Below, one piece after another: positions 35,060 through 56,239 of a stretch of 64,000 bases of DNA. Under the pieces are notes generated by a model that saw nothing but the letters and a program-made list of their open reading frames with translations, was not told the DNA's origin and searched no databases. The DNA is taken from positions 96,001-160,000 of the IMG/VR virus record IMGVR_UViG_3300009431_000002; one strand, 5' to 3'. How positions within the stretch are numbered: position 1 is the stretch's first letter; every line of letters begins with the position of its first letter. This DNA comes from a virus (lineage: Duplodnaviria; Caudoviricetes). Made by a program: the position numbers and the translations under genes.

Positions 35060-36230
35060 CGGCCCCCTCCTTCTCCAGCAGGGTCTTGTAGCCGCGGGGC
35101 TGCATGCCTGCGTCGAGCGCCTTCTTGAACCTGCGGACGTGCTTGCAGTCGCTGCCCTTGTGCGACCGCTTGTAGTACCAGTCCGGGCACGTGCATCCGA
35201 CTCGACCCGAGGACATGAGCTTCAGGGTGTACCGCTTGGGTCCGACATCGGACTTGACCCGGCGGACGTGCTCGGCGCCCTGCATGCCCTCCATGGCCCG
35301 CACGTGCCTTTTTAGCTTCGAGTCGGCCTCGGGGTGCAGGAGGATGGCCTGGCGGAACCCCGGGGACCGCAGGGCGCGGCCCTTGTACTTCTTCCACGCG
35401 TCCTGCGTGGGCGCGGGATCCGTGACGAGCCTGTCGGCCTGCTGCAAGTGCTTGGGCTTCGGGATGGTCGGCGGCAGCGGGCCCTGCCGGGCCTCCTTGA
35501 CCGCCGACGTCTTCTCCGCCACGAACCGCAGATTCTGCGACCCGGGCGTCGGCACCCTGTGGTACCCGACCTTCCCGGTGGCCGGACTGTAGATCGCGTG
35601 CCACTCCCCTGCGCCGCCCGGCATCCTCGCCCCGTGGATGTCCACGCTGCTGGGCCACACCTCCGGGGACACGAGCCCGCGCACCACATCCCGCGCGCGG
35701 CGAGCGTGCCGAAGGTTGCCTGGGGTGGGCCGGTCGAGATCGACGCCAGCAGCGGCCATCAGCTCCTCGAACTCTGGGCTGAACGGCTCTGGTCGGAGTT
35801 CCTGCGCAAGGTCACGCTCGATCATGGCGGGGTCTGGCGGGTCGCCGGGGTGGCTGTGGGCCGTCGGGCGCGAGGGTCCCGTGCGGTTCGCGGAGACGGG
35901 CCGCAACGCCACCGTCCCACCATCGCCGTGGACTAGATGGCGCGAACGCCCGCGCACGCCCACCTCGCCTACCTCATCCGCGCTCGCAGCCGCCAGATCC
36001 TTCATCCTGGCGGTCGGCGCGGCAGTCGATGGGTGGTCGATCTTCCCCTTCCTGAGCATCTTGGCCAGCCAGCGCCAGTCGCCCTCGCCCACCGAAACAC
36101 CGGCCGCACGTGCCGTCCGCGCGAGGTCCTCCGTGCGCGCTGACGTCTTGGCCAACTCGACGAAGTTGGCGCCCAAAATCGACCCCAGGCTATGGGCGAT
36201 TTCTGGGCGGCTGGTCAGATCTGATTTCAT
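34980..36230 (-). CDS. SWIM zinc-finger protein with N-terminal tag
   Basis: GCTCPDW...DCKHV (CxC-xn-CxH); N-terminal ANFVELAKTSA; TGATG coupling to the Snf2 gene. Confidence 0.75.
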   Translation of the reverse strand: MKSDLTSRPEIAHSLGSILGANFVELAKTSARTEDLARTARAAGVSVGEGDWRWLAKMLRKGKIDHPSTAAPTARMKDLAAASADEVGEVGVRGRSRHLVHGDGGTVALRPVSANRTGPSRPTAHSHPGDPPDPAMIERDLAQELRPEPFSPEFEELMAAAGVDLDRPTPGNLRHARRARDVVRGLVSPEVWPSSVDIHGARMPGGAGEWHAIYSPATGKVGYHRVPTPGSQNLRFVAEKTSAVKEARQGPLPPTIPKPKHLQQADRLVTDPAPTQDAWKKYKGRALRSPGFRQAILLHPEADSKLKRHVRAMEGMQGAEHVRRVKSDVGPKRYTLKLMSSGRVGCTCPDWYYKRSHKGSDCKHVRRFKKALDAGMQPRGYKTLLEKEGAVSGFASELARLAPALDPACSALAGFH

Positions 36231-39073
36231 CAATGGCTCGGGATGTAGTGCTCGGTCTTCTGGACCTTCTCCTCGGTCACGGACAGCCCACGCAGCATGG
36301 CACGGAGCTGCTCGTCACCGAGTCGCGCCCGCTTGCGCGCGTGGGTCTTGGGCGTCGTGAAGTACGGGTCGCGCAGGCCCAGCAGCATCTCTGGCGTGAG
36401 CATCAACGCAGCGAGCCCTGTGCCGGCGGCGACGGCGCCCCCGATGCCCACCGCGGCCTGGGTGACCGAGCGGGACCGGGGCAGTAGGTCTTCGGCGAGC
36501 CCGATGCCCAGTGGAGCGAAGGCAGGGGCGCCAGACAGGCCGACCAGCGGCGTGGCGATGCCCAGGACCTTGGCCGTGTTCACCAGCCTGTCCTTGTCGG
36601 TCTTCATCCCCTTGGGCGCCGGCGTTCCGCGCGCGGCCGCGCGGTAGTACTGGCGCAGGGTGTCGATGAAGTACTGCTCGCGCGCCTGCTTCTTCTCGTT
36701 GCCCACGGCCTCGACGTACGGGTCGGCCATGTCCTCGATCTTGTCGCCGAACTCGTTCCAGTACGCCTCCATGATGGGCTGGTCGGACTTGACGAGGCTG
36801 CGGCCCTCCTGGAAGGGGATGCGCTTGGCTGCGGCCCGCAGCTTCTTCTTGTCCACCTTGGCCGCGGAGATCTTCTCCATCTCGTCGTCGAAGGCGGCCT
36901 GCATCACGGCGAGCTTGAGCAGGGAGTCCTCGGCGAGCTCACCGACGGCGTAGTCGAACTCGGACTCCACGCTGGCGGCCTTGGACTTGCCCTTCAACTG
37001 GTGGCGGAACGACTCGTTGAGCACGTCCTTGCGCTTGGCGACGTCGTACATCCACTCGTCGGGCGAGGTCTCCCGCTTGAACGGGTTGTACATGATCGGC
37101 GCGCCGGCGGTGGTCAGGCGGTCGAGGAAGCCTCCAGGGGAGATGAGCTTCAGCGTGTCCTTGGCGGTCTGCGTGGCCGAGCGGGGCACGACGCTGACGT
37201 ACCGGCGGATGACGACCTTGCGCTGCTCCGGCTCCCGGTGCGCGAGCCCGCCGGCGCGGACCGCGCGGGCCTCGGCCTGCTGGATCTTCTCGGGGTTGAA
37301 GTGGCCGTCGAGCGCCGCGAACATCGTGGCGTTCTTGAGGTCCAGCCCCTCGCCGCCGGCGGCAGAGATGACGAGGACCTTGTTCTTGCCCTTGTTGAAG
37401 TCGCGCACAGACCGTTGGCGCTTCTCCTCGGTCACCCCGGGCTGGCCCTTGCCCACGAAGGTGCCGAAGGGGATGCCGCGGTCCTTCAGCCCCGCGGACA
37501 CGACGTCGACCCCACCCTTGATCAAGTTCGAGTGGATGACGACCTGGCCGTCTTCGGTCTCGGCGAGGTGGTCCTCGACGTCGTCCAGCATCACCTTGAC
37601 CTTCGGCGTCTTCTGCGCCGACTCGGTGATGTCCATGTCGTTGTCGATGGTGTGGATCGAGTTCGAGACCTGCCGGGCCTGGATGATCTTGGCGAAGATG
37701 TTGTTGAGGTCCCGGCTCTTGAGCTGGCTGGCACCGAAGCGCAGCTTGATGGCCGTGACGGGGTCGAGCTTGTCCACCACGTAGCGGTAGAGCTCCTCCT
37801 GTCGCGGGCTCATCATCACCTTGACCTCTTCGACGACCTTGTCGGGCATGCGCTCGTCGTCCATGTCCTTGGTCTCGAAGTGGTCGACGAACGGGTTGAG
37901 CAGGGCGCGCACCATCCGCGGCCGCGCGATGGTCTTCTGCCCCTTCTTGTCCTCGCGGACGAAGCGTCGCTCGAAGTGGTTCTTGGTGCCCAGGCGGTGC
38001 TTGCCGCCGGTCATGGCGTCGACCAGCGGGACCATGTCGCCCGGGGTGTTGTTCATGATCGACCCAGTCAGGCCGATGAAGTTCTTGTGGTGCGGGCGCG
38101 CGTCCTTCAACGTCTTGTAGGTCGCGCCCTCCTCGTTGCGGATCCGGTGGAGCTCGTCGTAGATGACGGTGTCCGCGCCCGAGGCCTTGATGTACTTCTC
38201 CGGGTCCTTGCGGAACATCTCGTAGCTGACGACGTGGTAGCGGGCACCGTCGTCGGGGTCCTCGGCGGCCCTGGCAACGCCCTTGGCTACCTCCTGGCTG
38301 TTGCCGAAGATCGCACCGCGGGCGTTGGTGAACTTGCGGACCCCGTTGTCCAGGAAGTTGGCGCGCAGCGACGCCGGCGTCACGACCAGCGCGCGGCTGG
38401 CGTCCCCGGAGTCTCGCATCTTCTCGAACGAGGCGATGGCGGTGATGGTCTTGCCGGACCCCGTGCCGTGGGACAGGAGCAGGGAGCCACCGCGGTTCAT
38501 CACCTTGTCGACCGCAGCCCTCTGGTGCTCGAACAGCTCGACGTTGCGCTTCAGTCCCTTGGGCTCGAACCTCTGTTCCTTCTTGCGCTTCGCCACCTTC
38601 ACCGAGCTAGCCTTGGCCATGCCCGGCGCCGCCTCTCCCATCGTCTCCGCGGACCGCCCGACGACCCGGCCCAGGTGCTCCGGCAGCTTCCGCAGCTTGC
38701 CCTTCAGCAGCTGCTCCGCCTCCACCGAGCTGGGTGAGGGTGCGAGGCCGAGGAGCTTCGACGCGAGCATGTCTCCCTTGAGGGCACCGAGTCCCGCGAC
38801 CTCCGCTGTGCCAGGCACGGGCAGGGCTGCTGCTGCACCCATCGCCGCGGGGATGGTGGCGATGTTGTCGGTAGCGGCGCCGACCAGGACTCGCTGGGTC
38901 TCAGGGTTGAGCAGGTGGAATCGAGAGGTCCCCGGAACCTCCGTCAGCAGCACGCGCTGGAGAGCGTCGGACGCGCCGCCCGCAGCCTGCTCCACCGCCT
39001 GCCCGACGCGCGGCAGCCCGACGCGGCGGAGGAGTTCGCCTGTGATCTGCCCACGTGCCGCCGCCTTCTCCAT
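36230..39073 (-). CDS. SWI2/SNF2-family ATPase, 947 aa
   Basis: HGTGSGKT, VVTPASL, VSYE, YDELHR, LTGSIMNN, AGGEGLDL, QAEARAVRAG; flanked by K-x-A motifs and AAFDDEMEKIS. Confidence 0.9.
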   Translation of the reverse strand: MEKAAARGQITGELLRRVGLPRVGQAVEQAAGGASDALQRVLLTEVPGTSRFHLLNPETQRVLVGAATDNIATIPAAMGAAAALPVPGTAEVAGLGALKGDMLASKLLGLAPSPSSVEAEQLLKGKLRKLPEHLGRVVGRSAETMGEAAPGMAKASSVKVAKRKKEQRFEPKGLKRNVELFEHQRAAVDKVMNRGGSLLLSHGTGSGKTITAIASFEKMRDSGDASRALVVTPASLRANFLDNGVRKFTNARGAIFGNSQEVAKGVARAAEDPDDGARYHVVSYEMFRKDPEKYIKASGADTVIYDELHRIRNEEGATYKTLKDARPHHKNFIGLTGSIMNNTPGDMVPLVDAMTGGKHRLGTKNHFERRFVREDKKGQKTIARPRMVRALLNPFVDHFETKDMDDERMPDKVVEEVKVMMSPRQEELYRYVVDKLDPVTAIKLRFGASQLKSRDLNNIFAKIIQARQVSNSIHTIDNDMDITESAQKTPKVKVMLDDVEDHLAETEDGQVVIHSNLIKGGVDVVSAGLKDRGIPFGTFVGKGQPGVTEEKRQRSVRDFNKGKNKVLVISAAGGEGLDLKNATMFAALDGHFNPEKIQQAEARAVRAGGLAHREPEQRKVVIRRYVSVVPRSATQTAKDTLKLISPGGFLDRLTTAGAPIMYNPFKRETSPDEWMYDVAKRKDVLNESFRHQLKGKSKAASVESEFDYAVGELAEDSLLKLAVMQAAFDDEMEKISAAKVDKKKLRAAAKRIPFQEGRSLVKSDQPIMEAYWNEFGDKIEDMADPYVEAVGNEKKQAREQYFIDTLRQYYRAAARGTPAPKGMKTDKDRLVNTAKVLGIATPLVGLSGAPAFAPLGIGLAEDLLPRSRSVTQAAVGIGGAVAAGTGLAALMLTPEMLLGLRDPYFTTPKTHARKRARLGDEQLRAMLRGLSVTEEKVQKTEHYIPSH

Positions 39074-39074
39074 G

Positions 39075-40052
39075 TCAGTGCCCTTCCTGCCGGCTCACCG
39101 ATGGGTACAGGCCGCCGGTCTTGATGAGTCCCTCGGAGATCCGCTTGCCCCGCACGTCGCGGCGACGCAGCAGTCGTCGGAAGTCGTCGAACGACATCGT
39201 CGTCATCGACCCGAAGAACTTGGGGCTGTTGTAGTGCTTGAGGTACGCCCGCTTCGCCTCCTTGGCATTGCGGAACCCCAGCATGCACTTGTCCTCGTCG
39301 TACTCCTTGAAGCCGGGCTTCTTCATCTGGTGGACGATGTACACCACGTCGGAGTGGAGGTCTGGCCCGACGTACACGTCGACGGGGTCGCCGTCGGGGG
39401 CCATGGTCCGTCGGACCTCACCGTAGTGGTGCTGCATCTTCGTGCTGCCGGACTCGCCGGTGTTCTCGTCCTTCCAGTGCCGGCTGGAGCCGCGGCGGTT
39501 CTCGATGTAGATCTTCAACCCACGGAAGTCGATGGTCCCCTGGTAGGGCCACTCCTTCCTGTTCCGCTTCGGCGGCGGGCCCACCTTGGGCTTGACCTCC
39601 TTGGGGTCAGCGCCGTTGGCCTTGGCCACCTTCTCCAGCGCCGCGATGATGGCGAGCCCACTGGCCTTGTAGAAGTTGCCCTCGTTCACACCGACCGTCT
39701 CACTGTTCCGCGCGTCCTCCAAGCCCTTCAGCCCGTCCTTCGTCAGCTCGGGGCCGCCCTTGACCTTCAGGAACTCGTGCCCGTCGCCGTCGACACTGGT
39801 CTTGTAGGCGCGGCTGGCGCCGATCTGGCTGTTGTGCTCGACCGCTCGGAGCAGCCGGACCATCTTGGCGACGGTCTCCGGGTGGCCCTCGAGCTCCAGC
39901 TTCACCGAGGCGCGCGGCTGCTCACCGACCTTCTCCGGCAGCTTCTCGTCCGGTGTGTGCCTCTCCCACTTCTTGACGGTGCCCTTGGGCACACGACCAT
40001 CCGCCTCCATGGCGTGGAAGAGTCGTCGCTGTGCCTCGCTCTGGAATGGCAT
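39075..40052 (-). CDS. Protein with N-terminal MPFxSxAQ module and C-terminal inorganic pyrophosphatase-like (InPase) domain
   Basis: GLKIYIENRRGSSR...MQHHYGEVRRT.APDGDPVDVYVGP...VYIVHQ...YDEDKCMLGF...AKRAY matches the phage/polyvalent-protein InPase pattern. Confidence 0.75.
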   Translation of the reverse strand: MPFQSEAQRRLFHAMEADGRVPKGTVKKWERHTPDEKLPEKVGEQPRASVKLELEGHPETVAKMVRLLRAVEHNSQIGASRAYKTSVDGDGHEFLKVKGGPELTKDGLKGLEDARNSETVGVNEGNFYKASGLAIIAALEKVAKANGADPKEVKPKVGPPPKRNRKEWPYQGTIDFRGLKIYIENRRGSSRHWKDENTGESGSTKMQHHYGEVRRTMAPDGDPVDVYVGPDLHSDVVYIVHQMKKPGFKEYDEDKCMLGFRNAKEAKRAYLKHYNSPKFFGSMTTMSFDDFRRLLRRRDVRGKRISEGLIKTGGLYPSVSRQEGH

Positions 40053-44339: not shown

Positions 44340-45431
44340 TCACCTCAAGTACGTGTTCTGGGCCAGGATGGAGCTGGCCGGAGTCGTCGGGGCCGCGGCT
44401 GTCGTACCCGCCACGGAGTGCGTGTGCGACTGGAGCCAGGAGACGAGCGTGTCTCCCAACACACCCTTCTGCGCGCCCTGCTGACCGCCGACCGTTACCT
44501 TCCCGCTGGGCTCCACCACGACGGAGCCTCCGCCCATCGTGATGTTGCCGGTGGCCGTGATCTCCACGTCGCCACCGCTGTCTATCTTCACACTGGTTCC
44601 ACCCTTGAGCATAGCTTCTTGAGTGGCTTCGACCTTCGCGTTCTCCTGTGCCACGAGCTCGATGTTCTTCTTGGCCGCCACCAAGAAGCTGTCCTCGACC
44701 GCCCAGGAGACCTCGCCGTTGTGCTTCACCGTCAGCTCGGCGTTGAGCGTCGCCTCCTCGGCGCCATCCACGTTCACGCCGAGCCGTAGGGCCACGTCTT
44801 CGTCGTCAGGGTCGTGGCCGAGCAGCAGGGAGCACACGTAGCCTGGGTCCGTGGCCTTCTCCTTGGCCCGCAGCAGCAGCGTCGTGGTCTTGTCTCCGTC
44901 CGCGTTCTTCTCCGGCCGGTCGACCAACCAGGTCAGCTCGCCGCCGAACGTCCGCAACTCGTACTGTGAGCACACGTCGCGGATCATCCGATGGATCGGC
45001 AGGTACAGGCGCTGGGCCAGGGGGCCGGCCATCACCTGCACCACGCCACCGCGTCGGATGGTGATGCCGTTGCCGTCCCTCGTGCTCATGTGGATGTCGC
45101 CGGGGTTGAGGTCCTTGCGGGTGGCGCGCCACCCCTCCTCCCCCGGCGGCGGCGCGTACCCCAGGATGAACGGGTGCTCCCCGTCGCTCGGCCAACAGAC
45201 CCAGCACATCGCCCCGACCTCCGGCATGATGTACACGCCTTCGCCGAAGTAGTGGTGCATGTACGGCGACATGAACGGCACGTCCCCGTAGTAGCGCATC
45301 GAGTGCTGGGTCACGAAGTCCACGGAGTACAACGGCGGGTTCACGTTGATGACCTGGGCGGACTCCACGTACGCCTCGGTGAGCTCACCGAGAGCAATCG
45401 GTCGCGGTTCCTGGTGGGTCGCCCGAGTCAC
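44340..45431 (-). CDS. Baseplate central spike (gpV/gp138-like)
   Basis: N-terminal OB-fold-like AQVINVN...MPEVGAMCWV; beta-repeat body; C-terminal LVSWLQSHTH with the HxH metal-binding tip motif. Confidence 0.8.
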   Translation of the reverse strand: MTRATHQEPRPIALGELTEAYVESAQVINVNPPLYSVDFVTQHSMRYYGDVPFMSPYMHHYFGEGVYIMPEVGAMCWVCWPSDGEHPFILGYAPPPGEEGWRATRKDLNPGDIHMSTRDGNGITIRRGGVVQVMAGPLAQRLYLPIHRMIRDVCSQYELRTFGGELTWLVDRPEKNADGDKTTTLLLRAKEKATDPGYVCSLLLGHDPDDEDVALRLGVNVDGAEEATLNAELTVKHNGEVSWAVEDSFLVAAKKNIELVAQENAKVEATQEAMLKGGTSVKIDSGGDVEITATGNITMGGGSVVVEPSGKVTVGGQQGAQKGVLGDTLVSWLQSHTHSVAGTTAAAPTTPASSILAQNTYLR

Positions 45432-46664: not shown

Positions 46665-49600
46665 CTAGTACCCGACGCGGAACTCCGTGGTGCCGGGTGT
46701 TCCTTTCTCAGGCTGCCCGAACTCGGAGCCATAGGCTAGCGCCGGGATCGGATGCAACCCGTGGATGTTGCTGGACCAGCCCCTCAAGGCACCGTCGACG
46801 ATGGTGTCCTTCAGCTTCTGGTACTGGAGCCGCGCCATCCAGTCCTCCTGCATGTCCAGCGGCGTCTGCGTGACCCCGCGCAGGATGGGCGTGAACTTGA
46901 CGGGCTTCTTGCGCTTCTTGTTGTGGTACCCGACATTCGACGTGGACACCAGGTCTCCTGGGAGGAGGTCGGTGTCGCCGGCGTCATCCACTACGCCGAG
47001 GTCGGTGATGGCGCGGACCGCGGTCTCCACGTTGCGCCGGAGCACTGGGCCCGCGTCCGAGTACGCCTTGTGGACCTCGTCCGCGAGGTAGCCGCGCACC
47101 GTGTTGATGTTGGTCAGCGGCAGCATCTCGTGCGGATTGATGGGCCCGCCGGAGAGCCGGTCCCCCTTGCGGACCTTCACGCCCTTGCGCAGCTTGATCT
47201 TCTCGTTGACCAGGTGCTCGGGGACGTAGTGCCTCTTCCCCTTGACCCAGATGTTGAGGCCGCCGACCTCGGCGTCCTTCTCCACCCGCTCTACGGTGCC
47301 CGTGGTCGTCGCCAGCGTCGCCGAGTCCGCCAGCACCTTGGGCATGCGCAGCAGGTCCTGGACCCTGGTGAACTTGTCGGTGGACCGGCCGCTCTTCGAG
47401 GCAGCGACCCCGCCTTCGTGGAACGCGCGCATCGACAACTGCGTGGCGGGCTCGCCCAGTGCCTGCGACGCGATGACCCCGATGTTGGTCCCCGGGTCGG
47501 GCAGCTGGCCGTCCGGCAGGTTGCCGTAGTCCCGTGCGTACAGTCCCTTCGGGGCCACCGACTTCAGCGGGCTGCGGATCGACACGCGCCGGACGCCGCT
47601 GTTCTTCATCCTCGTCTGGACCCGGTCGGTGACCTCGGTGTTCCTCGGCAGGACGTCGCCGCCCCGGAGCTTCACGGGCCGCGCGAGGTAGCGACCGATG
47701 ACCTCGCGGTCCTCGGGGTCCGCGCTGATGCCGTCGTCGGCGTCGTCCGGCGCGTCCCCATCGACCACGACGAGGTTCATGGCAGAGTTCACGACGTCCT
47801 TGGTCAGCGCGCCGGGCTTGGCGGTCTCCTTCGTCTTCTGGATCATGCCCTTGCGCGCACCGTGCATGGCCGTGAAGTAGCTGGCGGAGTCCAGGCCCTC
47901 GGCGTAGCTCTTGGTGATCGGCACCGGCACGATGCGGTCGGCCGCGTCCTTCACCAACATGGGGGCGATGAGGATCTGCCGGACCTGGTCCCAGTTGCCG
48001 CGAGCACCGGCGTTGACCATCTCCAGGGCGTGGTTGCCCTGCCGCTCCAACTTCGGACGGATGGCCCGGCTCAGGTCCTCGGTGGCCTTGGAGTAGAGGT
48101 CGACGAGGCGCTGGTCCTTCTCCTCCTGGGTCAGCGACTTCATCTTCTGGATGCGCTTGGCCGCCTTGTGGACCCCAGCCAGGGCGCGGTCGCGCACAGC
48201 CTGCTGCGCCTGGAAGTCGTCGAGGGTGAACGACGCGCCAGACTCGTAGGCGTAGTCGTTGCCCATGTCCTTGAGGTCGTTGACGACGTCGCCGAAGTCG
48301 GCCGAGTGCTCCTTGGCCATCCGGGTGAGGAGGTCCTTGGTCGGGCCCTTGGACATCCGGAAGTCCTTGGAGTGGAGCAGCTGCGCGTCCCCTCGCATCC
48401 CCTCCGGCAGCACGCGGTCGAGGAGGATGCGACCGAGGGTCGTCTCCCTGCCCTTCACCGAGACCACGTCGGTCATGCCGAGGCCGAGCTTGCGGGCCTT
48501 GGCCGCCACCTGCGCCGGCGAGTCGAAGCGGTGCGACGTCTTCTTCCCCCACTCTGTCAGCCGGTACAGCCCGAGCTGGGCCTCGTGGCCCGGGGAGTAC
48601 ATCACCCGGCCGGTGGTGGTGTTGAACAGGTTGTTGGACGGGAAGAGCTTGCGCGCCTCCTCCACCGCCTCCTTGGCGAGCGGAACGTAGGCGGACATCT
48701 GGTCGCCGTCGAAGTCGGCGTTGTACCCCGAGGTCACCAGGGGGTGGATGCGGATGGCCTTGCCGCCGACGAGCTTGGGCTTGAACGCCATGACCCCGAA
48801 CTTGTGGAGCACCGGGTCACGCTTCAGCAGCACCGGCCGCTCCTCCATCACGCGCTCAAGCGCGTGCCGGGCGACCTTGGAGTTGGTCCGGACCAGGTGC
48901 TGTGCCTCGGCGGGGACGTAGCCCTGCTCCCGCACCAGCTTTCGCACGACGAAGGGCTTGTACGTCTCCTTCGCCAGCTTGTAGGGGATGCCCACCTCGT
49001 CCAGTCCCATGTCGGGCTCGGGGATGATGGTGGACCGCATCGACAGGTCCTGCCGGCGGGAGACGAGGTTCTTCTGGAAGAACGAGTCCTTGGGCTGGGG
49101 CACGCCCTTCATCGTCTCCATCACGCCGCGGTGCTTGCGGCCGTTGATGGTGGAGCCGGTCATCATCAGGGCGCGGAGCCCGTCGTAGAGCTCGGCGGTC
49201 AGCTTGCTCTTCGTCTTCTCCCCGAGTCCGGGGTCGTAGTCCCGCAGCTGGATGTTGGTGATGCCGAGGCTCTTGTACAGGCCGTTGATGTCCGAGTCGT
49301 TGAGCTTGCCCGACTCCATCACCGAGACCGGCCGCATCACCGGCGGCATGACGGGCACGACCGAGGTGAAGTACGCCTGGTCGGGGGTCAGGTCGTTGGC
49401 GACCAGCGCCTCGAGGAACCGGATCTGCTTGCGCAGCTTCGCCATCGTCGACACGGCCTTGGTGGTCTCGGCCTGGCGACGGAGCGTCTCCAGCTGCTGC
49501 CGTGGGTCGATGGCCGCCAGCCGTGCGCGGATGGCTTCGGGCCCGGTCTTCCCGTCGAGCGTCTTCTCGCCGGCGATGACGGCCTGGTAGTCCTTGTTCT

Positions 49601-52600
49601 TCAGCCCCGTGAAGGTGAGGATGGCCTTCTCGAACACCGGGTTCGGCATGGGCTCGGCCAGCCGGATGTGGGACCAGCGCTTGCCGTCCACACCGCCCGT
49701 GGCGTAGGGGTCGAACAGCCCGCCGCGCTCCGGCTTGAGGTCCTTGCCCCGGAACATCAGGCCCGGGTCCTTCAGTTCGCCGCTGGACATCCGCAGGATC
49801 TGCTCGTCGGTGAGGGGCGCGAGGTTCAGGGTCGAGCCCTGCTTCTTGACGTCGACGCCCAGCACGTTGAGGTAGCCGTTGAACTTGTCGAAGGCGAACG
49901 AGGTGGACGGCGGTGGGAGCTGCTCCCCAGTCTGCAGGGCCATCCACAGCTCGGGGTTCTTCTGGCTCTTGTAGGTGGCCATCTCCCGGATGTTGGCCTT
50001 CGCTCCATGAGCCAACATGGCGTACATGCCCAACGCGTCCATGGCCTGGGCGCCGTGGGCACCACCGCCCTTCGGAACCTCGTTGACGCTGTACGCGTAC
50101 CCGGCCCCGCCCGCGCGGGCGTGGGACTTCTTGTCGATCTGGTGCTTGAGCTTGAGGATGTACTGGTCGCCCGTGAGGATCGGCCCCAGGCTCTGCCCGG
50201 ACTTGGGGTCCACCAGCTCCTCGGTGTCGGACAGGCCCTCCTTCGCCAGCTCCGCCTTCATCTCCTTGGCGTAGTTGCGGTTGGCCCCGCCGAAGTTGTT
50301 GGTGACGTACCGCTTGCCCCGCTTCCGGGCGATCTTCCCGGCCATCGTCTCGAGGACCTGGCCGAGGTTGATGCGGCCGGGGATGCCAGCCGGGTTGAGC
50401 AGGACCTCGACCGGGGCGCCCTCTTCGCCAGAGGCGCGCGGCATCTCGTGGTCAGGCAGCACCGCCGTGACGATGCCCTTGTTGCCGTGGCGTCCGACCA
50501 GCTTGTCCCCGACGCGGGCAGGCTCCTCGGTGGCGACGTGGACGCTGACGTCCTTGCCCCGCTTGACGACGCGGACCACCCGGCCCTTCGTGTCCTTGTC
50601 CCAGACGATGGGCTTGGGGTCCATGTCCCGCACGAGGCTCTTGTGCAGCCGCGCCCGCATGCGACGCTCGCTGGTCTGCTCCGGCTTCTTCAGCGCGGCG
50701 ACGAGGATGTCCCCCTCGTTGACCTCCTGCCCCACCTGGATGACGCCGTCGTCGTCGAGCTTGTCGTAGACCTCGCGCTGCACGCGGTCGGGTGGCGCGT
50801 ACGCGCGGAACTTCTTCTTGTCCAGGACCGTGTTCTTGGTCAGCCGCATGCTCTTGCGGTGCATGTGCTGGGACTTGAGCTTCTCGGCCGCGGACTCGGA
50901 GACGACGATGCCGTCCTCGAAGTTGTACCCACGGTACGGGATGTAGGCCACCCGGAGGTTCTTGCCCAGCGCGAGCTTGCCTTCGCGCGTGAAGTTGGTG
51001 TCGGCCACCGTCTGGCCGCGCTTGACCTTGTCCCCCTTCTTCACGAGGGGCTCGGAGTGCAGGACGCTGGACGCCTCGTTGAGCGGGAAGTGGTCGTAGA
51101 GCTGGACCTCCTCCAGCTTCCCGGCCTTGCTCCGGATCTTGATGGCGCCGGGCCTCACCGACACCACGGTGCCTTCCACCGGGGACTCGTGGGAGTTGAA
51201 CTGGCCCAGCACGTCCTCGAAGGTGGACCTCACCTCGGTCTTGGACTGCACCAGCGGCTCGTCGCGGTCCACCAGGGGCACGGCCTGCTCCTGCTGCCGG
51301 GACGCCGTCATGGCCCTGTTGCCCTGGTTGTTCTGCAGGAAGGGCACGAGGTTGGTGGCCATGCTGAACAGGCCCTTGGCCGACGGGAGGATGTAGTCCA
51401 CCTCGCTGGCCGGCACCTGCATCACCTCGCCGCCCGGGCCGCTGACCGTCACCTCCTTACCGATGGGGACGAGCCGGTTCTTCACCTTCTTGTACTGGTC
51501 TGGGAAGGCGACGGTGGAGCGGTGCGCCTTGTGCGGATCGATCTTCTCCCGGCGGCCCGTCTTCGTGTTGTAGGCCTGGATGTAGAGGGTCTTGCCCTTC
51601 CGCGACACCCCCAGCGGGAGCTGGAGGGTGATGCCGGTGCGGTCACCCTCCGGGGTGTGGATGGGGTCGAGGAAGCCGAGGTGCGTCGGGTCGATGAGCT
51701 GGTCGGCGTCGGTCAGGGTGTGGGTGCTCTTGACCCCGCCCTCGCCCATGATGGTGGTCTTGGACTGGCCGGAGATGAACTCCAGCGGGTTGACCTGGTC
51801 GGGCATCTGCGACAGCTGGGTCTGGGTGAAGAAGGTCTTGATGGGCTTGTCGAACAGCCCGGGGGTCACGACCTCCCTGACGTCGGCCTTGCGGTCGATG
51901 TTGTTCTCCATCTTCCGCTGCAGATCCCAACGGCCGCGGGTCAGCCGCTCGGCCACGAAGTCGTCGACCGACAACGCGTCCTTGTAGAACAGGTGCTCAC
52001 GCGCGTCCGGGGTGTCCTCGCCCCTCGAGATCCGCGCGAGCTTGTGGGCCGAGGCCAGGAGCGACGGGCCGCTCACCTTGTCGTAGGCCTTGCCCAGGGT
52101 GATCTTCGTGCTGTCGGGGCGCAGCACGGTCGTGCCGAACTCATCTCGGAGGTGGCGCTCGGCGTCCTCGATGCTGGGTGCCTGCTTGCCCGTCGACGCC
52201 TTGTAGAAGGCGCGCATGGCGACGTCGTGCTTCTCCTTCTTCCCCTGGTTGAGGATCCCGCGGCCCAGCTCGCGCTCGATGGTGTCGTCGTCGACCCCCA
52301 GCACCTTGAGCATCGGGTAGAGCGGGATGTGGGAGTTGCCGTACCGGACCAGGAACCGCCGGTCCTCCGGGTGGAACCGGAGCCGGAAGTTCTTGCCTTT
52401 CGCCATGTTCCACTGGGACTCCAGCTCACCCTTGGCGCTGACGCGGTGGTACACCCCAGCCTTCAACCGGAACTGGTTGTCGACCTGGTACTCCTTGCCG
52501 TCGACGATGTAGGAGTGCCGCTTGGTCACGCGGGGCAGGTTGCCCACGCGCATGGACTTGCGGCTGATGACCTTGCCCGTCTCCTTGTTGACCAGGGAGA

Positions 52601-52811
52601 CGTCGGCCATAACAGGGTCAGCCCAAGTCCTGCCCTTGAGCTTCGCGTCCTGCTGGGACCGGATGTCGTCGATGCCCTTCTTGTCGTCGACCCAGACCCG
52701 GTGGAGCTCCAGCCGGTTCTCTCGCCCCTCGAAGGGGAACATCGACGAGATGGCGTCGCTGACACGGTCTTTGAGGGCACCGTAGGAACCCTCTGGGTTC
52801 AGTGTCGCCAT
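46665..52811 (-). CDS. rpoBC: Single-chain fused beta-beta' multisubunit-type RNA polymerase, 2048 aa
   Basis: Beta motifs GDKLVGRHGNKG, LNPAGIPGRINLGQVLE, ILKLKH; beta' motifs KPERGGLF, PVMPPVMRP, LLKRDPVLH, YNADFDGDQM (catalytic), HGARKG (bridge helix), SQALGEPATQLSMRAFH (trigger loop). Confidence 0.97.
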   Translation of the reverse strand: MATLNPEGSYGALKDRVSDAISSMFPFEGRENRLELHRVWVDDKKGIDDIRSQQDAKLKGRTWADPVMADVSLVNKETGKVISRKSMRVGNLPRVTKRHSYIVDGKEYQVDNQFRLKAGVYHRVSAKGELESQWNMAKGKNFRLRFHPEDRRFLVRYGNSHIPLYPMLKVLGVDDDTIERELGRGILNQGKKEKHDVAMRAFYKASTGKQAPSIEDAERHLRDEFGTTVLRPDSTKITLGKAYDKVSGPSLLASAHKLARISRGEDTPDAREHLFYKDALSVDDFVAERLTRGRWDLQRKMENNIDRKADVREVVTPGLFDKPIKTFFTQTQLSQMPDQVNPLEFISGQSKTTIMGEGGVKSTHTLTDADQLIDPTHLGFLDPIHTPEGDRTGITLQLPLGVSRKGKTLYIQAYNTKTGRREKIDPHKAHRSTVAFPDQYKKVKNRLVPIGKEVTVSGPGGEVMQVPASEVDYILPSAKGLFSMATNLVPFLQNNQGNRAMTASRQQEQAVPLVDRDEPLVQSKTEVRSTFEDVLGQFNSHESPVEGTVVSVRPGAIKIRSKAGKLEEVQLYDHFPLNEASSVLHSEPLVKKGDKVKRGQTVADTNFTREGKLALGKNLRVAYIPYRGYNFEDGIVVSESAAEKLKSQHMHRKSMRLTKNTVLDKKKFRAYAPPDRVQREVYDKLDDDGVIQVGQEVNEGDILVAALKKPEQTSERRMRARLHKSLVRDMDPKPIVWDKDTKGRVVRVVKRGKDVSVHVATEEPARVGDKLVGRHGNKGIVTAVLPDHEMPRASGEEGAPVEVLLNPAGIPGRINLGQVLETMAGKIARKRGKRYVTNNFGGANRNYAKEMKAELAKEGLSDTEELVDPKSGQSLGPILTGDQYILKLKHQIDKKSHARAGGAGYAYSVNEVPKGGGAHGAQAMDALGMYAMLAHGAKANIREMATYKSQKNPELWMALQTGEQLPPPSTSFAFDKFNGYLNVLGVDVKKQGSTLNLAPLTDEQILRMSSGELKDPGLMFRGKDLKPERGGLFDPYATGGVDGKRWSHIRLAEPMPNPVFEKAILTFTGLKNKDYQAVIAGEKTLDGKTGPEAIRARLAAIDPRQQLETLRRQAETTKAVSTMAKLRKQIRFLEALVANDLTPDQAYFTSVVPVMPPVMRPVSVMESGKLNDSDINGLYKSLGITNIQLRDYDPGLGEKTKSKLTAELYDGLRALMMTGSTINGRKHRGVMETMKGVPQPKDSFFQKNLVSRRQDLSMRSTIIPEPDMGLDEVGIPYKLAKETYKPFVVRKLVREQGYVPAEAQHLVRTNSKVARHALERVMEERPVLLKRDPVLHKFGVMAFKPKLVGGKAIRIHPLVTSGYNADFDGDQMSAYVPLAKEAVEEARKLFPSNNLFNTTTGRVMYSPGHEAQLGLYRLTEWGKKTSHRFDSPAQVAAKARKLGLGMTDVVSVKGRETTLGRILLDRVLPEGMRGDAQLLHSKDFRMSKGPTKDLLTRMAKEHSADFGDVVNDLKDMGNDYAYESGASFTLDDFQAQQAVRDRALAGVHKAAKRIQKMKSLTQEEKDQRLVDLYSKATEDLSRAIRPKLERQGNHALEMVNAGARGNWDQVRQILIAPMLVKDAADRIVPVPITKSYAEGLDSASYFTAMHGARKGMIQKTKETAKPGALTKDVVNSAMNLVVVDGDAPDDADDGISADPEDREVIGRYLARPVKLRGGDVLPRNTEVTDRVQTRMKNSGVRRVSIRSPLKSVAPKGLYARDYGNLPDGQLPDPGTNIGVIASQALGEPATQLSMRAFHEGGVAASKSGRSTDKFTRVQDLLRMPKVLADSATLATTTGTVERVEKDAEVGGLNIWVKGKRHYVPEHLVNEKIKLRKGVKVRKGDRLSGGPINPHEMLPLTNINTVRGYLADEVHKAYSDAGPVLRRNVETAVRAITDLGVVDDAGDTDLLPGDLVSTSNVGYHNKKRKKPVKFTPILRGVTQTPLDMQEDWMARLQYQKLKDTIVDGALRGWSSNIHGLHPIPALAYGSEFGQPEKGTPGTTEFRVGY

Positions 52812-54241: not shown

Positions 54242-56239
54242 TCAGACGACCGCCCGCTCGAGGGGCCGGCGCGGGGGCTTCTGCTCGGGGAGGGGCTGCT
54301 GAAGCGGATTCAGCGTGTCTCGCTGGCCTCCATCGCCCTCGCTCAGCAGGGCCTGGACCATGCGGTAGATGTCGGGGCTGCCCATCCGCAGCTTCTGCAT
54401 GGCCTGCGGGAACATGGCCGGCTGCTCGTCCTGGATCCGGCGCATCTCCGTGGCGATGCGTCGCGCGACGAAGCGGACGTCGACCATCTCGTTGCCGCCG
54501 GTCATCTGCCCCATGTGCATGGGGGACTGGACCTCCTGCGGGAGGTTGTCGACGTACACGGCCGCGCCGTCCGGCACACCCGGACCGATCTGCTCGCCGC
54601 GCATGACCGATGGCTGGGTCTGCGGCAGCTCGGCGTAGGACGGCGGGGACTCCGGCGGCTGCTGCATCTGCATCTGCATGTGCTGGGCCTGGATCTCGTA
54701 GCGGAGGGCCGCCAGCTGGGCCTCCCCCTGCGCCGCGGCCTGGGCCACCACCATCTCGCGGTTGGCTGCCACCTGCTTGACCAGCTCCTGCTTCTTCCGC
54801 TTCTCCTCGGTCTCCAAGTCCTCGCCGAGCTCGCGGAGGAACGTGGTGTCGGAGATCTTCATGGCCTGGTTCGCCTGGAAGTAGACCATCAGCCTCTGCA
54901 GGTCGTCGGCCATCTTGAACCGCTCGAACCGGATGGGCACCCTCGGCCAGCCGAGGAACTCGCAGATGCGGCCCATGACGAAGTCGCCAACCAGCCGGAG
55001 TTGGTCGTCGCGGTACCCACTGAACTGGTTCTCGAGGATGCGCATCGACACGTTGGTGCCGGTGTACTGCATGCCACCGAAGATGAACTCGATGGGCACG
55101 TTCATGCCCGCGATGATCTGCTCGCTCCAGACCCGCAGCTCCTGGTGGAGGATGAGCGCCCGTCCCTGGCCGCCGATCATCTCGTGGCCGAGTGGGATGG
55201 GCATCAGCGGGATGTAGTTGGGGTCCTGGCGCCAGCGAGCGATCTCCTCCTGGACCTGGTCCTTCCACTCCCCGAGGTTGATCATCGTGATGGGGTCGCC
55301 GGTCTGCCCGTTGGCCTGCGGGTACAGCACGCGCAGCGGGACGATGTGCTCCTGGGCGATCATCTCCTGGCCCTTGCGCAGGACCTGCAGGTAGAAGATG
55401 TCCTTGAGCACGGGCAGGACCAGCGGCATGCCCCAGCCCTGGTCCTTCTGGGCGATGATGGGCCGCTTGAGGTGGAACAGCGTGCCCGGCGCGAACTTCA
55501 CCGACTTCTTCTTCCGCATCGCCTCGATGAAGGTGTCGGGCACCGTCTCGATGACGTTGCGGCGGCCGATGGTGATGGCGTTCTTCAGCTTCTGCGGCAG
55601 CTTGTAGAAGTAGGTCGGGTCGGTGACGCCCTCGTTGTCGTCGATCTCCACCCGCTCCGGGTCCCACCGGACCAGCCGGATGCCCTTGGCCGTCCGCATG
55701 GCCTCGTCGTGGACCTCGGCCGGCCGGCGCTCCCCGCACTCGGGGCAGGTCAGGTAGTAGACCATCTCCTGGTAGCGGTAGTGCCTGCGGAGCTTGTCGA
55801 TGGGCGCCTTGTGGCCGCAGTGACGGCACTTGAGGTGCTTGACGAAGGGGAAGTGCACCGTGACGAAGGCGTTGCCGTAGTTGTAGTAGTCCAGCCCCAC
55901 CTCGATCTGGAACTTGCGGACCTGGAGCTGGTCCTCGAAGAGGTGGCGGTACCGCTCTCGGACGTCCTTGTCGTCGGCCTCGTAGATGATCTTGGTGATG
56001 GGGTACTCGGCCAGCTTGTACACGACCGCGTTGATGAGCGGGTTCGTGAAGAAGAAGTACCGGCACCACTGCAGCATCTGCTTGAGGCGCGCGGGGAAGT
56101 ACGTCTGGGCGGCGTCGAAGAACGGGTTGGGGTACCGCACCCCGGTCCGCTGCATGCTCGAGCCGAGCGTGACGGGCGTGCGGGAGAAGCGGGTCAGCCC
56201 GTCACCGTAGGAGACGCCGGTGTACCCGAGGCCTGGCAT
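54242..56239 (-). CDS. Portal protein with zinc-ribbon insertion, 665 aa
   Basis: NPLINAVVYKLAEYPIT, GLDYYNYGNAFV, GWGMPLVLPVLK are portal-like; insertion CRHC...CPEC; Q/M/P-rich C-terminal tail. Confidence 0.85.
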   Translation of the reverse strand: MPGLGYTGVSYGDGLTRFSRTPVTLGSSMQRTGVRYPNPFFDAAQTYFPARLKQMLQWCRYFFFTNPLINAVVYKLAEYPITKIIYEADDKDVRERYRHLFEDQLQVRKFQIEVGLDYYNYGNAFVTVHFPFVKHLKCRHCGHKAPIDKLRRHYRYQEMVYYLTCPECGERRPAEVHDEAMRTAKGIRLVRWDPERVEIDDNEGVTDPTYFYKLPQKLKNAITIGRRNVIETVPDTFIEAMRKKKSVKFAPGTLFHLKRPIIAQKDQGWGMPLVLPVLKDIFYLQVLRKGQEMIAQEHIVPLRVLYPQANGQTGDPITMINLGEWKDQVQEEIARWRQDPNYIPLMPIPLGHEMIGGQGRALILHQELRVWSEQIIAGMNVPIEFIFGGMQYTGTNVSMRILENQFSGYRDDQLRLVGDFVMGRICEFLGWPRVPIRFERFKMADDLQRLMVYFQANQAMKISDTTFLRELGEDLETEEKRKKQELVKQVAANREMVVAQAAAQGEAQLAALRYEIQAQHMQMQMQQPPESPPSYAELPQTQPSVMRGEQIGPGVPDGAAVYVDNLPQEVQSPMHMGQMTGGNEMVDVRFVARRIATEMRRIQDEQPAMFPQAMQKLRMGSPDIYRMVQALLSEGDGGQRDTLNPLQQPLPEQKPPRRPLERAVV

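What the first reader, a model, noticed from the sequence alone, without database searches (positions are those of the whole stretch)
46665..52811. The RNAP has no cysteine in 2048 residues and has lost both beta' zinc sites
Seen: I find no C in the translation. The N-terminal beta' zinc ribbon is replaced by a short link (KPERGGLFDPYATGGVDGKRWSHIRL). The second site, Cys-rich in bacteria (RS..C....G.C..CYG), reads RSPLKSVAPKGLYARDYG. At about 1% Cys roughly 20 would be expected; portal, terminase and sheath here do contain Cys. Established: N4 virion RNAP is cysteine-free, which has been linked to its passage through the envelope. Inference: convergent adaptation of an unrelated RNAP fold to unfolding and ejection through an oxidising periplasm or cell wall.
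Basis: partly seen in the sequence, partly recalled or inferred. Interest (0 to 1): 0.85.

Follow-up and report, generated by a model that had tools for sequence, protein, structure and literature searches.

The report
Cysteine-free, zinc-site-free phage RNA polymerase
A large uncultured phage encodes a bacterial-type RNA polymerase as one 2048-residue chain with no cysteine and neither of the usual zinc sites, most likely because the enzyme is carried in the virus particle and injected with the DNA, as in its cultured relative Arash.

Summary
ORF 46665-52811(-) encodes a fused beta-beta' RNA polymerase of 2048 aa with no Cys codon. About 23 Cys are expected from this genome (P about 1e-10), and 79 cellular beta' subunits, 67 with their beta, carry a median of 20.

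The beta' N-terminal zinc ribbon is deleted. The second site (E. coli C814/C888/C895/C898) reads A1687/S1751/Y1758/D1761.

The pattern holds across the family:
- In 266 homologs, non-zinc Cys makes up 0.031% of residues.
- 250 homologs keep exactly the second zinc tetrad.
- That tetrad was lost at least four separate times, once in this lineage.
- Inteins inside the same genes carry 1.86% Cys, against 0.046% in the mature parts.
- The phage's sigma factor and SNF2 helicase families are also nearly Cys-free.

In the cultured relative Salmonella phage Arash, the polymerase, helicase and sigma orthologs are abundant in purified virions (PMC10585845).

Other injected polymerases also avoid Cys: N4 gp50, P23-45 gp96 and phi14:2 gp66. 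The phiKZ virion polymerase does so only about twofold.

Earlier notes of this scan described the same family, including one Cys-free member, on other DNA.

The parts
46665..52811 (-). Fused beta-beta' RNA polymerase gene, 2048 aa (P0001), with no Cys codon
   Evidence: It is the only multisubunit-type RNAP gene in the 201,921-bp record.
49842..52811 (-). Beta (RpoB-like) module, about residues 1-990. The RHGNKG active-site motif is at residues 774-779 (50475-50492).
   Evidence: Pfam Rpb2_3 at 335-398 and Rpb2_6 at 578-903. Full-length match to bacterial beta chains, query 16-988. Motif position.
46668..49814 (-). Beta' (RpoC-like) module, about residues 1000-2048. The catalytic NADFDGD motif is at residues 1364-1370 (48702-48722).
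   Evidence: Pfam Rpb1_1, _2, _4 and _5. PDB beta' matches, E = 5e-113. Alignment; positions.
49659..49736 (-). Short linker (residues 1026-1051) standing where the beta' N-terminal zinc ribbon (E. coli C70/C72/C85/C88) normally lies
   Evidence: Alignment with Salmonella RpoC and 9 homologs. No conserved Cys column in this region in 91 sequences.
47529..47753 (-). Former second zinc site: A1687 (47751-47753), S1751 (47559-47561), Y1758 (47538-47540) and D1761 (47529-47531), in place of C814/C888/C895/C898
   Evidence: 88 of 91 intein-free homologs have Cys in all four columns; only P0001, P0003 and P0004 have A/S/Y/D. Alignment to RpoC. 250 of 266 homologs have CCCC.
36230..39073 (-). SNF2-family helicase, 947 aa, 0 Cys. 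It is the ortholog of Arash Gp217, which is abundant in virions.
   Evidence: Pfam SNF2-rel_dom and Helicase_C; phrog_62; tblastn with Arash gp217, 28% identity, E = 4e-44. The family has 58 of 87 members Cys-free, 0.114% overall.
39075..40052 (-). Protein with an InPase pyrophosphatase domain (PF18823), 325 aa, 1 Cys. PHROG families matched by this domain are annotated as minor head or virion structural proteins, and one as DarB-like.
54242..56239 (-). Portal protein, 665 aa, 6 Cys, including a conserved CxxC-x23-CxxC cluster (C138, C141, C165, C168). It lies just upstream of the RNAP gene, as in Arash.
   Evidence: tblastn with the Arash portal gp204, 30% identity, E = 4e-80. Cys positions in this phage and four relatives.
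44340..45431 (-). Possible baseplate spike protein, in the same gene run as the RNAP. The matches to the gp5/VgrG OB fold and DUF2345 are weak and below the Pfam cut-offs.
   Evidence: Suggestive only.

Best explanation
**What it is.** This is the catalytic core of a bacterial-type RNA polymerase written as one chain: a compact beta, then beta'. It belongs to a large family found in uncultured tailed phages of about 170-200 kb.

**Likely life cycle (inferred).**
- The enzyme is made late with the head genes and packed into the capsid.
- It is packed together with a phage sigma-70-type factor and an SNF2 helicase, and perhaps a pyrophosphatase.
- It is delivered into the host with the DNA and transcribes the first phage genes.

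**Why there is no cysteine (inferred).** A 230-kDa protein cannot pass a tail channel folded. It must be threaded out of the particle and across the cell envelope, then refold unaided. Free thiols would be a liability, either during long storage outside cells or during passage through a disulfide-forming envelope compartment. Selection has therefore removed essentially every Cys from the mature protein.

**Zinc sites.** The N-terminal zinc ribbon was deleted early in the family. The second zinc tetrad is the only Cys most members keep. This lineage replaced it with Ala/Ser/Tyr/Asp, which makes refolding independent of zinc.

**Shown versus inferred.**
- Shown: the composition, the site replacements, the family-wide pattern, the independent losses and the shared gene order.
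- Shown only in a relative: presence in virions (Arash proteomics).
- Inferred: packaging in this phage, injection, the unfolded passage, and what exerts the selection.
For: 1. **Composition.** 0 Cys in 2048 aa against about 23 expected, while the catalytic motifs are intact.
2. **Family pattern.** Across 266 homologs, non-zinc Cys is 158 of 508,851 residues (0.031%). It is zero in 162 of 228 near-full-length members.
3. **Repeated zinc-site loss.** 250 of 266 keep only the second zinc tetrad. A 230-sequence tree rooted on Arash and D181 gives a zinc-bearing ancestor and at least 4 complete losses. Three of them are nested in zinc-bearing clades with support 0.96-1.0, including the P0001/P0003/P0004 clade; the fourth (P0262/P0266) branches next to the root.
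4. **Internal control.** In 94 members with inserts, where Pfam was available intein and homing-endonuclease domains, the inserts have 1.86% Cys and the mature parts 0.046%. The avoidance therefore applies to the finished protein, not to the gene or genome.
5. **Partner proteins.** 53 of 60 sigma orthologs are Cys-free (0.059%). 58 of 87 helicase orthologs are Cys-free, and the Cys-rich exceptions largely carry intein domains.
6. **Virion presence in Arash.** The RNAP beta part Gp206 is the top protein with 3516 spectra. Gp216 has 1210, helicase Gp217 has 1148 and sigma Gp10 has 467 (PMC10585845). These have 1, 4 (the zinc tetrad), 0 and 0 Cys. The second Arash sigma, gp196, has 3 Cys and was not among the virion proteins I saw quoted from the paper.
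7. **Gene order.** Portal, RNAP, helicase, protease-like protein and capsid protein follow the same order here and in Arash, all on one strand.
8. **Other injected polymerases.** N4 gp50 and DEV gp71 have none (PMC11445570). P23-45 gp96 has 0 of 5002. phi14:2 gp66 has 2 of 2180, and its neighbours gp65 and gp67 have 1 each.
9. **Self-sufficiency.** No second RNAP and no alpha subunit were found in the genome, consistent with a self-sufficient single-chain enzyme.
Against: - There are no virion or expression data for this uncultured phage.
- The Arash preparation listed 116 proteins, including ribonucleotide reductases. Its authors note that abundant non-structural proteins may have been carried over.
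- 94% of the family keep one zinc site, so injection does not require a zinc-free enzyme.
- The phiKZ virion RNAP, which is injected, keeps 16 Cys in 2614 aa, only twofold below its non-virion paralog.
- Virion-gene regions of this genome are Cys-poor in general, at 0.35-0.7% against 1.3-2.1% elsewhere. Part of the effect is therefore not specific to injected proteins.
- The host, and so the existence of a periplasm, is unknown.
- The RNAP lacks the F-x-D-E-L-x-K-I tag shared by several neighbouring head-module proteins.
Confidence: 0.7

Rival explanations
1. The enzyme is packaged, but the pressure comes from storage rather than passage. Cys and zinc-thiolate sites are removed because the enzyme must stay active for long periods in an oxidising extracellular particle. 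Unfolding or crossing a periplasm plays no part.
For: Virion-gene blocks of this genome are Cys-poor overall. The Arash capsid and tail-tube proteins have 0 Cys. The host may not have a periplasm.
Against: - The portal, which is equally exposed, keeps a conserved four-Cys cluster plus other Cys in all five phages examined.
- Tail proteins keep 0.5-0.8% Cys.
- The polymerase, sigma and helicase families are ten or more times lower than these resident virion proteins.
Confidence: 0.15
2. The enzyme is not packaged in this phage. It is an ordinary intracellular phage polymerase, and its lack of Cys and zinc sites reflects another pressure, such as zinc scarcity (as with zinc-free ribosomal protein paralogs) or thiol-reactive host defences.
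For: There are no direct data for this phage. Zinc-site loss recurs in only a minority of lineages, which could track particular hosts or habitats.
Against: - Zinc economy does not explain the removal of all non-zinc Cys in more than 250 homologs that keep a zinc site.
- The gene sits between the portal and the head genes.
- The Arash ortholog dominates the virion proteome.
- Replication and metabolic genes of the same genome have 1.3-2.1% Cys.
Confidence: 0.07
3. The result is chance, base-composition bias, or an annotation or genetic-code artefact.
For: The high GC content produces long spurious ORFs, including a 2040-aa antisense ORF here.
Against: - P is about 1e-10 against the genome's own proteins.
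- The other frames of the same DNA hold 110 TGY codons.
- Neighbouring genes use Cys normally.
- The pattern is conserved in hundreds of homologs at 35-67% identity.
Confidence: 0.01

Closest known systems
RNA polymerase of Salmonella phage Arash (Gp206 + Gp216) and of Vibrio phages D181/D148/D69
   Same: - Bacterial-type beta followed by beta', about 30% identical over 97% of the length.
- The gene lies after the portal gene and is followed by an SNF2 helicase.
- The N-terminal zinc ribbon is missing.
- Almost no Cys outside the second zinc site: 1 + 4 in Arash and 1 + 1 + 4 in D181.
- A Cys-free sigma ortholog, 30% identical, E = 1e-28.
- The Arash enzyme was found in virions.
   Different: - Those enzymes are split into two or three polypeptides by inserted genes; this one is a single chain.
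- They keep the second zinc tetrad (CCCC); this one has A/S/Y/D.
- No published analysis of their Cys content was found.
Cellular bacterial RNA polymerase core (RpoB + RpoC)
   Same: - Same domain order and catalytic motifs (RHGNKG, NADFDGD), at 27-32% identity.
- A sigma-70-family factor is encoded by the phage.
   Different: - One chain of 2048 aa, against about 2750 aa in E. coli.
- No alpha subunit in the genome.
- Both zinc sites absent.
- 0 Cys, against a median of 20.
Phage N4 gp50 / Pseudomonas phage DEV gp71 virion RNA polymerases (Schitoviridae)
   Same: Large, Cys-free polymerases carried in the virion and ejected. The neighbouring ejection proteins are Cys-free too. The published idea links this to passage through the periplasm (PMC11445570).
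   Different: Those enzymes have an unrelated T7-like single-subunit fold inside a 3400-3500-aa ejection protein of short-tailed phages. They have no sigma factor and no beta or beta' homology.
crAss-like phage phi14:2 gp66 and Thermus phage P23-45 gp96 (virion two-barrel polymerases)
   Same: Single-chain, virion-carried polymerases that transcribe early genes. Both are nearly or fully Cys-free: 2 of 2180 and 0 of 5002.
   Different: They are distant QDE-1-like two-barrel enzymes without recognisable beta or beta' domains or a sigma factor. P23-45 gp96 is fused to the tape measure protein.
phiKZ virion RNA polymerase (gp80, gp149, gp178, gp180)
   Same: A multisubunit-type polymerase related to beta and beta', packed in the head and injected (PMC13282480).
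   Different: It is split into four or five polypeptides, is very divergent (Pfam barely detects it), and has no sigma homolog. It keeps 0.61% Cys.

Membership tests
Bacterial-type multisubunit RNA polymerase (beta/beta' core) | Beta module with the double-psi barrel and conserved Lys motif (GNKG) | tested here: met
   Pfam Rpb2_6, E = 7e-64. RHGNKG at residues 774-779. Full-length PDB beta matches.
Bacterial-type multisubunit RNA polymerase (beta/beta' core) | Beta' module with the catalytic NADFDGD motif and Rpb1 domains in order | tested here: met
   NADFDGD at residues 1364-1370.
Bacterial-type multisubunit RNA polymerase (beta/beta' core) | Beta' N-terminal zinc ribbon (E. coli C70/C72/C85/C88) | tested here: not met
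   Deleted and replaced by a 26-residue linker, here and in the 9 aligned homologs. No conserved Cys column there in 91 sequences.
Bacterial-type multisubunit RNA polymerase (beta/beta' core) | Second beta' zinc site (E. coli C814/C888/C895/C898) | tested here: not met
   A1687/S1751/Y1758/D1761. The site is present in 250 of 266 family members.
Bacterial-type multisubunit RNA polymerase (beta/beta' core) | Assembly on an alpha dimer, with an omega subunit | tested here: not met
   No PF01000 or PF01193 match in the phage genome, with controls positive. Use of host alpha was not tested. Omega was not searched.
Bacterial-type multisubunit RNA polymerase (beta/beta' core) | Promoter recognition through a sigma-70-family factor | tested here: inconclusive
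   A sigma-70-type gene exists (Sigma70_r3, E = 5e-10; phrog_351, E = 1e-15). Binding to this core was not tested.
Fused or adjacent beta-beta' RNAP family of Arash-like large phages | Beta directly followed by beta', next to the portal gene in the head module | tested here: met
Fused or adjacent beta-beta' RNAP family of Arash-like large phages | High sequence similarity over the full length | tested here: met
   67% identity to P0003 and P0004, and 45-50% to more than 100 others over 99-100% of the length. The sequence is nested inside the family tree.
Fused or adjacent beta-beta' RNAP family of Arash-like large phages | Presence in purified virions | not testable with these tools
   Shown only for Arash (PMC10585845). 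This phage is uncultured.
Cys-free ejected virion RNA polymerases (N4 gp50 type) | T7-like single-subunit polymerase domain inside a giant ejection protein | tested here: not met
   The Pfam domains are all beta/beta' type. No PF00940 match in the genome, though the control for that search was uninformative.
Cys-free ejected virion RNA polymerases (N4 gp50 type) | Near-absolute absence of Cys, conserved across homologs | tested here: met
Cys-free ejected virion RNA polymerases (N4 gp50 type) | Ejection into the host and transcription of early genes | not testable with these tools
   Inferred from the Arash proteomics and gene order only.

The most novel reading that the evidence does not exclude
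A complete bacterial-type transcription starter kit is packed in the capsid and threaded through the tail. It consists of a single-chain beta-beta' core without alpha, a sigma factor and an SNF2 helicase. It refolds in the host without any thiol, and in this lineage without any zinc. The second beta' zinc site is found in all 79 cellular beta' subunits examined here, each with at least 8 Cys. If this reading is right, a small set of side-chain replacements can stand in for it. Nature found such replacements at least four times, twice with the same G-(V/L)-Y-A-(K/R)-D-Y-G solution.
Probability: 0.35. Interest if true: 0.8.

Novelty: new variant of a known kind. Interest (0 to 1): 0.62.

Why it matters
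- **Extends a known rule.** Avoidance of Cys in ejected phage proteins is documented for N4-like phages. This finding extends it to a true bacterial-type RNA polymerase, whose cellular relatives all keep two four-Cys zinc sites.
- **A practical marker.** Extreme Cys avoidance may flag injected proteins in uncultured phages. Here it picks out the polymerase, the sigma factor and the helicase together.
- **A natural experiment on the zinc site.** The second beta' zinc site was replaced at least four separate times, which bears on whether that site is dispensable.
- **A useful enzyme.** A single-chain bacterial-type polymerase without Cys, zinc sites or an alpha subunit would be an attractive minimal enzyme for structural and in vitro work.
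- **An undescribed family.** I found no paper on this polymerase family beyond the Arash genome and proteome report. A June 2026 review of jumbo phages does not mention it.

Tried and rejected
- **DNA search.** Megablast of the gene against 50,697 phage records found nothing. Only the protein-level search found relatives.
- **Neighbouring genes.** PHROGs and Pfam gave no match for most neighbours, so the roles of the 714-, 314-, 269- and 261-aa proteins in the same gene run remain unknown.
- **Host.** Scanning 185,579 species genomes returned only cellular rpoB/rpoC at 27-32% identity. These were useful as a Cys baseline but named no host.
- **Promoter.** Eight-mers enriched in intergenic DNA were dominated by tRNA sequence and gave no candidate motif. 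This line was dropped.
- **phiKZ control.** Pfam models barely detect its polymerase. The subunits were taken from the record's annotation and from my own knowledge of which gene products form the virion and non-virion enzymes.
- **Literature.** Searches for a description of this polymerase class found none.
- **Structure prediction.** Not run, because the tool returns no coordinates. The contacts among A1687, S1751, Y1758 and D1761 could not have been measured.
- **Complex prediction of sigma with the core.** Not run. A pass would not tell the phage core from the host core.
- **Antisense ORF.** The 2040-aa plus-strand ORF was rejected as a high-GC artefact.

Full report
**Setting.** The window is bases 96,001-160,000 of a 201,921-bp linear virus record with about 67% GC. 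In such DNA both strands carry long open frames. Here a 2048-aa minus-strand ORF (46665-52811) overlaps a 2040-aa plus-strand ORF. Only the minus-strand product is a real protein. It has GC3 of 0.96. Pfam finds Rpb2_3 and Rpb2_6 followed by Rpb1_1, _2, _4 and _5. Its two halves match bacterial beta and beta' chains in the PDB over their full lengths, down to E = 1e-113. It is therefore a beta-beta' fusion of the cellular type, with RHGNKG at residues 774-779 and NADFDGD at 1364-1370. It is the only such gene in the record. No alpha subunit was found.

- The protein has no Cys. The coding frame has no TGC or TGT, while the other two frames of the same strand have 97 and 13.
- My GC3-based gene set for the whole genome has 1.13% Cys outside this gene. 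That gives about 23 expected and P(0) about 1e-10.
- Even the Cys-poor virion-gene blocks at 100-150 kb (95 Cys in 12,529 residues) predict 15.5, so P is about 2e-7.
- In 79 cellular rpoBC loci, beta' carries a median of 13 Cys and never fewer than 8. In the 67 with a long beta, beta plus beta' carries a median of 20 and never fewer than 13.
- Salmonella RpoC has Cys at 70/72/85/88 and 814/888/895/898, the E. coli numbering. Aligned with it, the N-terminal zinc ribbon is deleted and replaced by the linker at residues 1026-1051.
- The second site reads A1687, S1751, Y1758 and D1761, with a two-residue insertion after the first position.
- The portal (6 Cys) and large terminase (10 Cys) do contain Cys. 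I could not identify a sheath gene.

**The family pattern is the main new result.**
- The word-indexed search found 889 relatives at E <= 1e-10. The best 120 are about 2050-aa proteins on metagenomic contigs of up to about 200 kb.
- Of 91 members without large inserts, 77 have exactly four Cys, 11 have five or six, and three (P0001, P0003, P0004) have none.
- The four shared Cys fall in the columns of A1687, S1751, Y1758 and D1761, which is the second zinc site.
- I added the 150 best representatives from the exhaustive search to give 266 sequences. Of these, 250 have CCCC at that site.
- Non-zinc Cys in columns homologous to P0001 is zero in 162 of 228 near-full-length members, and 0.031% of residues overall.
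- The tetrad is absent in several groups: A/S/Y/D (this lineage), A/S/S/A, H/S/Y/D with D/C/A/S, V/D/A/D with I/V/P/S, and N/A/P/A. A few members have His or Asp at one or two positions.
- A FastTree phylogeny of 230 sequences and 2015 columns, rooted on Arash and D181, infers a zinc-bearing ancestor. It shows at least four complete losses. Three are nested within zinc-bearing clades with support 0.96-1.0; the fourth (P0262/P0266) branches next to the root. The clade of this window sits in a 12-member clade whose other nine members have CCCC.
- Two of the separate losses arrived at nearly the same local sequence, G-(V/L)-Y-A-(K/R)-D-Y-G.

**An internal control.** Many members carry inserts. 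For those, the precomputed Pfam domains are intein and homing-endonuclease families. In 94 insert-bearing members the inserts hold 1163 Cys in 62,506 residues (1.86%). The mature parts hold 88 non-zinc Cys in 192,063 residues (0.046%), and some of these may be intein residues forced into the fixed-length alignment. Codon supply, base composition and genome-wide habit are thus excluded. The avoidance applies to the finished protein.

**Is the enzyme in the virion?** There are no data for this uncultured phage.
- The nearest cultured relatives are Vibrio phages D181, D148 and D69 and Salmonella phage Arash, at about 30% identity over up to 97% of the length.
- The Arash paper (PMC10585845) reports mass spectrometry of gradient-purified particles. 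The polymerase part Gp206 is the most-detected protein (3516 spectra). Gp216 has 1210, helicase Gp217 has 1148 and sigma factor Gp10 has 467.
- The authors caution that abundant enzymes might be carried over.
- By tblastn the Arash portal, both polymerase parts, helicase, a protease-like protein, capsid protein, terminase and Gp10 all have orthologs in this genome, in the same order.
- Gp206 has 1 Cys in 1525 aa. Gp216 has only the zinc tetrad. Gp217, Gp10 and the abundant 1097-aa Gp4 have none. The second Arash sigma, gp196, has 3 Cys, and I did not see it among the virion proteins quoted.

**The same signature marks the partner proteins.**
- The SNF2 helicase (36230-39073, 947 aa) has no Cys. 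Its family has 58 of 87 members Cys-free, and the Cys-rich exceptions largely carry intein domains.
- The sigma-70-type factor lies outside the window, at genome 201197-201886 on the minus strand. Its 5' end is cut by the end of the record, and the part present has no Cys.
- 53 of 60 sigma orthologs are Cys-free, at 0.059% overall.
- Next to the helicase lies a protein with an InPase pyrophosphatase domain. PHROG families matched by that domain are annotated as minor head or virion structural proteins, and one as DarB-like.
- Polymerase, sigma, recycling helicase and pyrophosphatase make a coherent transcription set.

**Comparison with other injected polymerases.**
- PMC11445570 states that N4 gp50 and DEV gp71 lack Cys. 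Their homologs have 0.00075% Cys against 0.865% for the proteomes, and a requirement for passage through the periplasm has been proposed.
- I counted 0 Cys in the 5002-aa tape-measure-fused virion polymerase of Thermus phage P23-45, where neighbouring genes have 0.27%.
- In crAss-like phage phi14:2, gp66 has 2 Cys in 2180 aa and gp65 and gp67 have 1 each. Its ribonucleotide reductase and SNF2 genes have 0.9-1.6%.
- phiKZ is a partial exception. Its virion polymerase subunits have 0.61% Cys and the non-virion set has 1.16%. The subunit assignment comes from the record's notes and my own knowledge.
- Cys avoidance has therefore arisen repeatedly in packaged polymerases of unrelated folds, but it is not obligatory.

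**What remains inferred.** The selective agent is not identified.
- Virion-gene regions of this genome are Cys-poor in general, at 0.35-0.7% against 1.3-2.1% elsewhere. Storage in an oxidising medium may contribute.
- Against storage alone: the portal keeps a conserved CxxC-x23-CxxC cluster plus other Cys in all five phages examined, and tail proteins keep 0.5-0.8%. The polymerase, sigma and helicase families are ten or more times lower.
- Most of the family keeps one zinc site, so passage tolerates it. The complete loss here is best read as a further, non-essential step in the same direction.
- The host is unknown, and I found no promoter motif.

**Novelty.** The idea that ejected phage proteins avoid Cys is published for N4-like phages. 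I found no description of this polymerase family beyond the Arash report, and a June 2026 review of jumbo phages omits it. Earlier notes of this scan had already described the fused family on other DNA, including one Cys-free member beside a portal gene, and on this genome had proposed a packaged transcription kit. My counts, tree and controls were made independently of those notes. I rate the finding as a new variant of a known kind: a zinc-site-free, Cys-free polymerase of the cellular type.

Noticed in passing
window about 13692, 14390, 23998, 36892, 45810, 46632, 57139 (minus strand); also genome 1379, 1723, 13403: The peptide motif F-x-D-E-L-x-K-(I/V/Q) occurs 10 times in the genome, always in a minus-strand frame. 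It mostly lies near the N-terminus of small head-module proteins and once at residue 728 of the SNF2 helicase. It may be a capsid-targeting signal or a head-protease site. The RNAP itself lacks it. The lead came from an earlier scan note.
   Followed up: partly
window 54242-56239 (-), residues C138, C141, C165, C168: The portal protein carries a CxxC-x23-CxxC cluster. It is conserved in four relatives (L012, L014, Arash gp204, D181 0261) and is a probable zinc site in a portal.
   Followed up: partly
homologs P0017-P0267 (RNAP) and P0349, P0361, P0368, P0410, P0413 (helicase): Both the polymerase and the helicase genes of this phage group are heavily invaded by inteins and homing endonucleases, giving products of up to 4739 aa. 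The inserts are Cys-rich while the host proteins are Cys-free.
   Followed up: partly
genome 201197-201921 (outside the window; L009:14198-14922): The sigma-factor gene runs off the end of the record and does not continue at base 1. The record is therefore not a closed circle, although it is rated 100% complete. About 30-38 N-terminal codons are missing relative to the 93%-identical P0268.
   Followed up: yes
L014:21297-22856 and homologs P0336, P0337, P0369, P0384, P0407: In some relatives a LigD_N or DNA-ligase domain protein follows the head-module genes (519 aa, 0 Cys) or is fused to the SNF2 helicase. This suggests that further enzymes join the Cys-free set.
   Followed up: no
genome 6854-10378 (-), 195331-197922 (-), 5176-6612 (-) (outside the window): Other large, nearly Cys-free proteins of unknown function: 1174 aa with 1 Cys, 863 aa with 1 Cys and 478 aa with 0 Cys. 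By gene order the first corresponds to Arash Gp4 (1097 aa, 0 Cys), the second most detected virion protein. The third matches Arash Gp6.
   Followed up: partly
P0213 and P0001/P0003/P0004, second zinc-site region: Two separate zinc-site losses share nearly the same replacement sequence, G-(V/L)-Y-A-(K/R)-D-Y-G. This is either convergence on one structural solution or exchange between lineages.
   Followed up: no
L022 (DATJQA010000074.1, an 18-kb contig binned as Candidatus Paceibacterota): One continuous match to residues 21-2019 of the fused polymerase at 27% identity. This may be a fused rpoBC gene or a phage contig placed in a bacterial bin.
   Followed up: no
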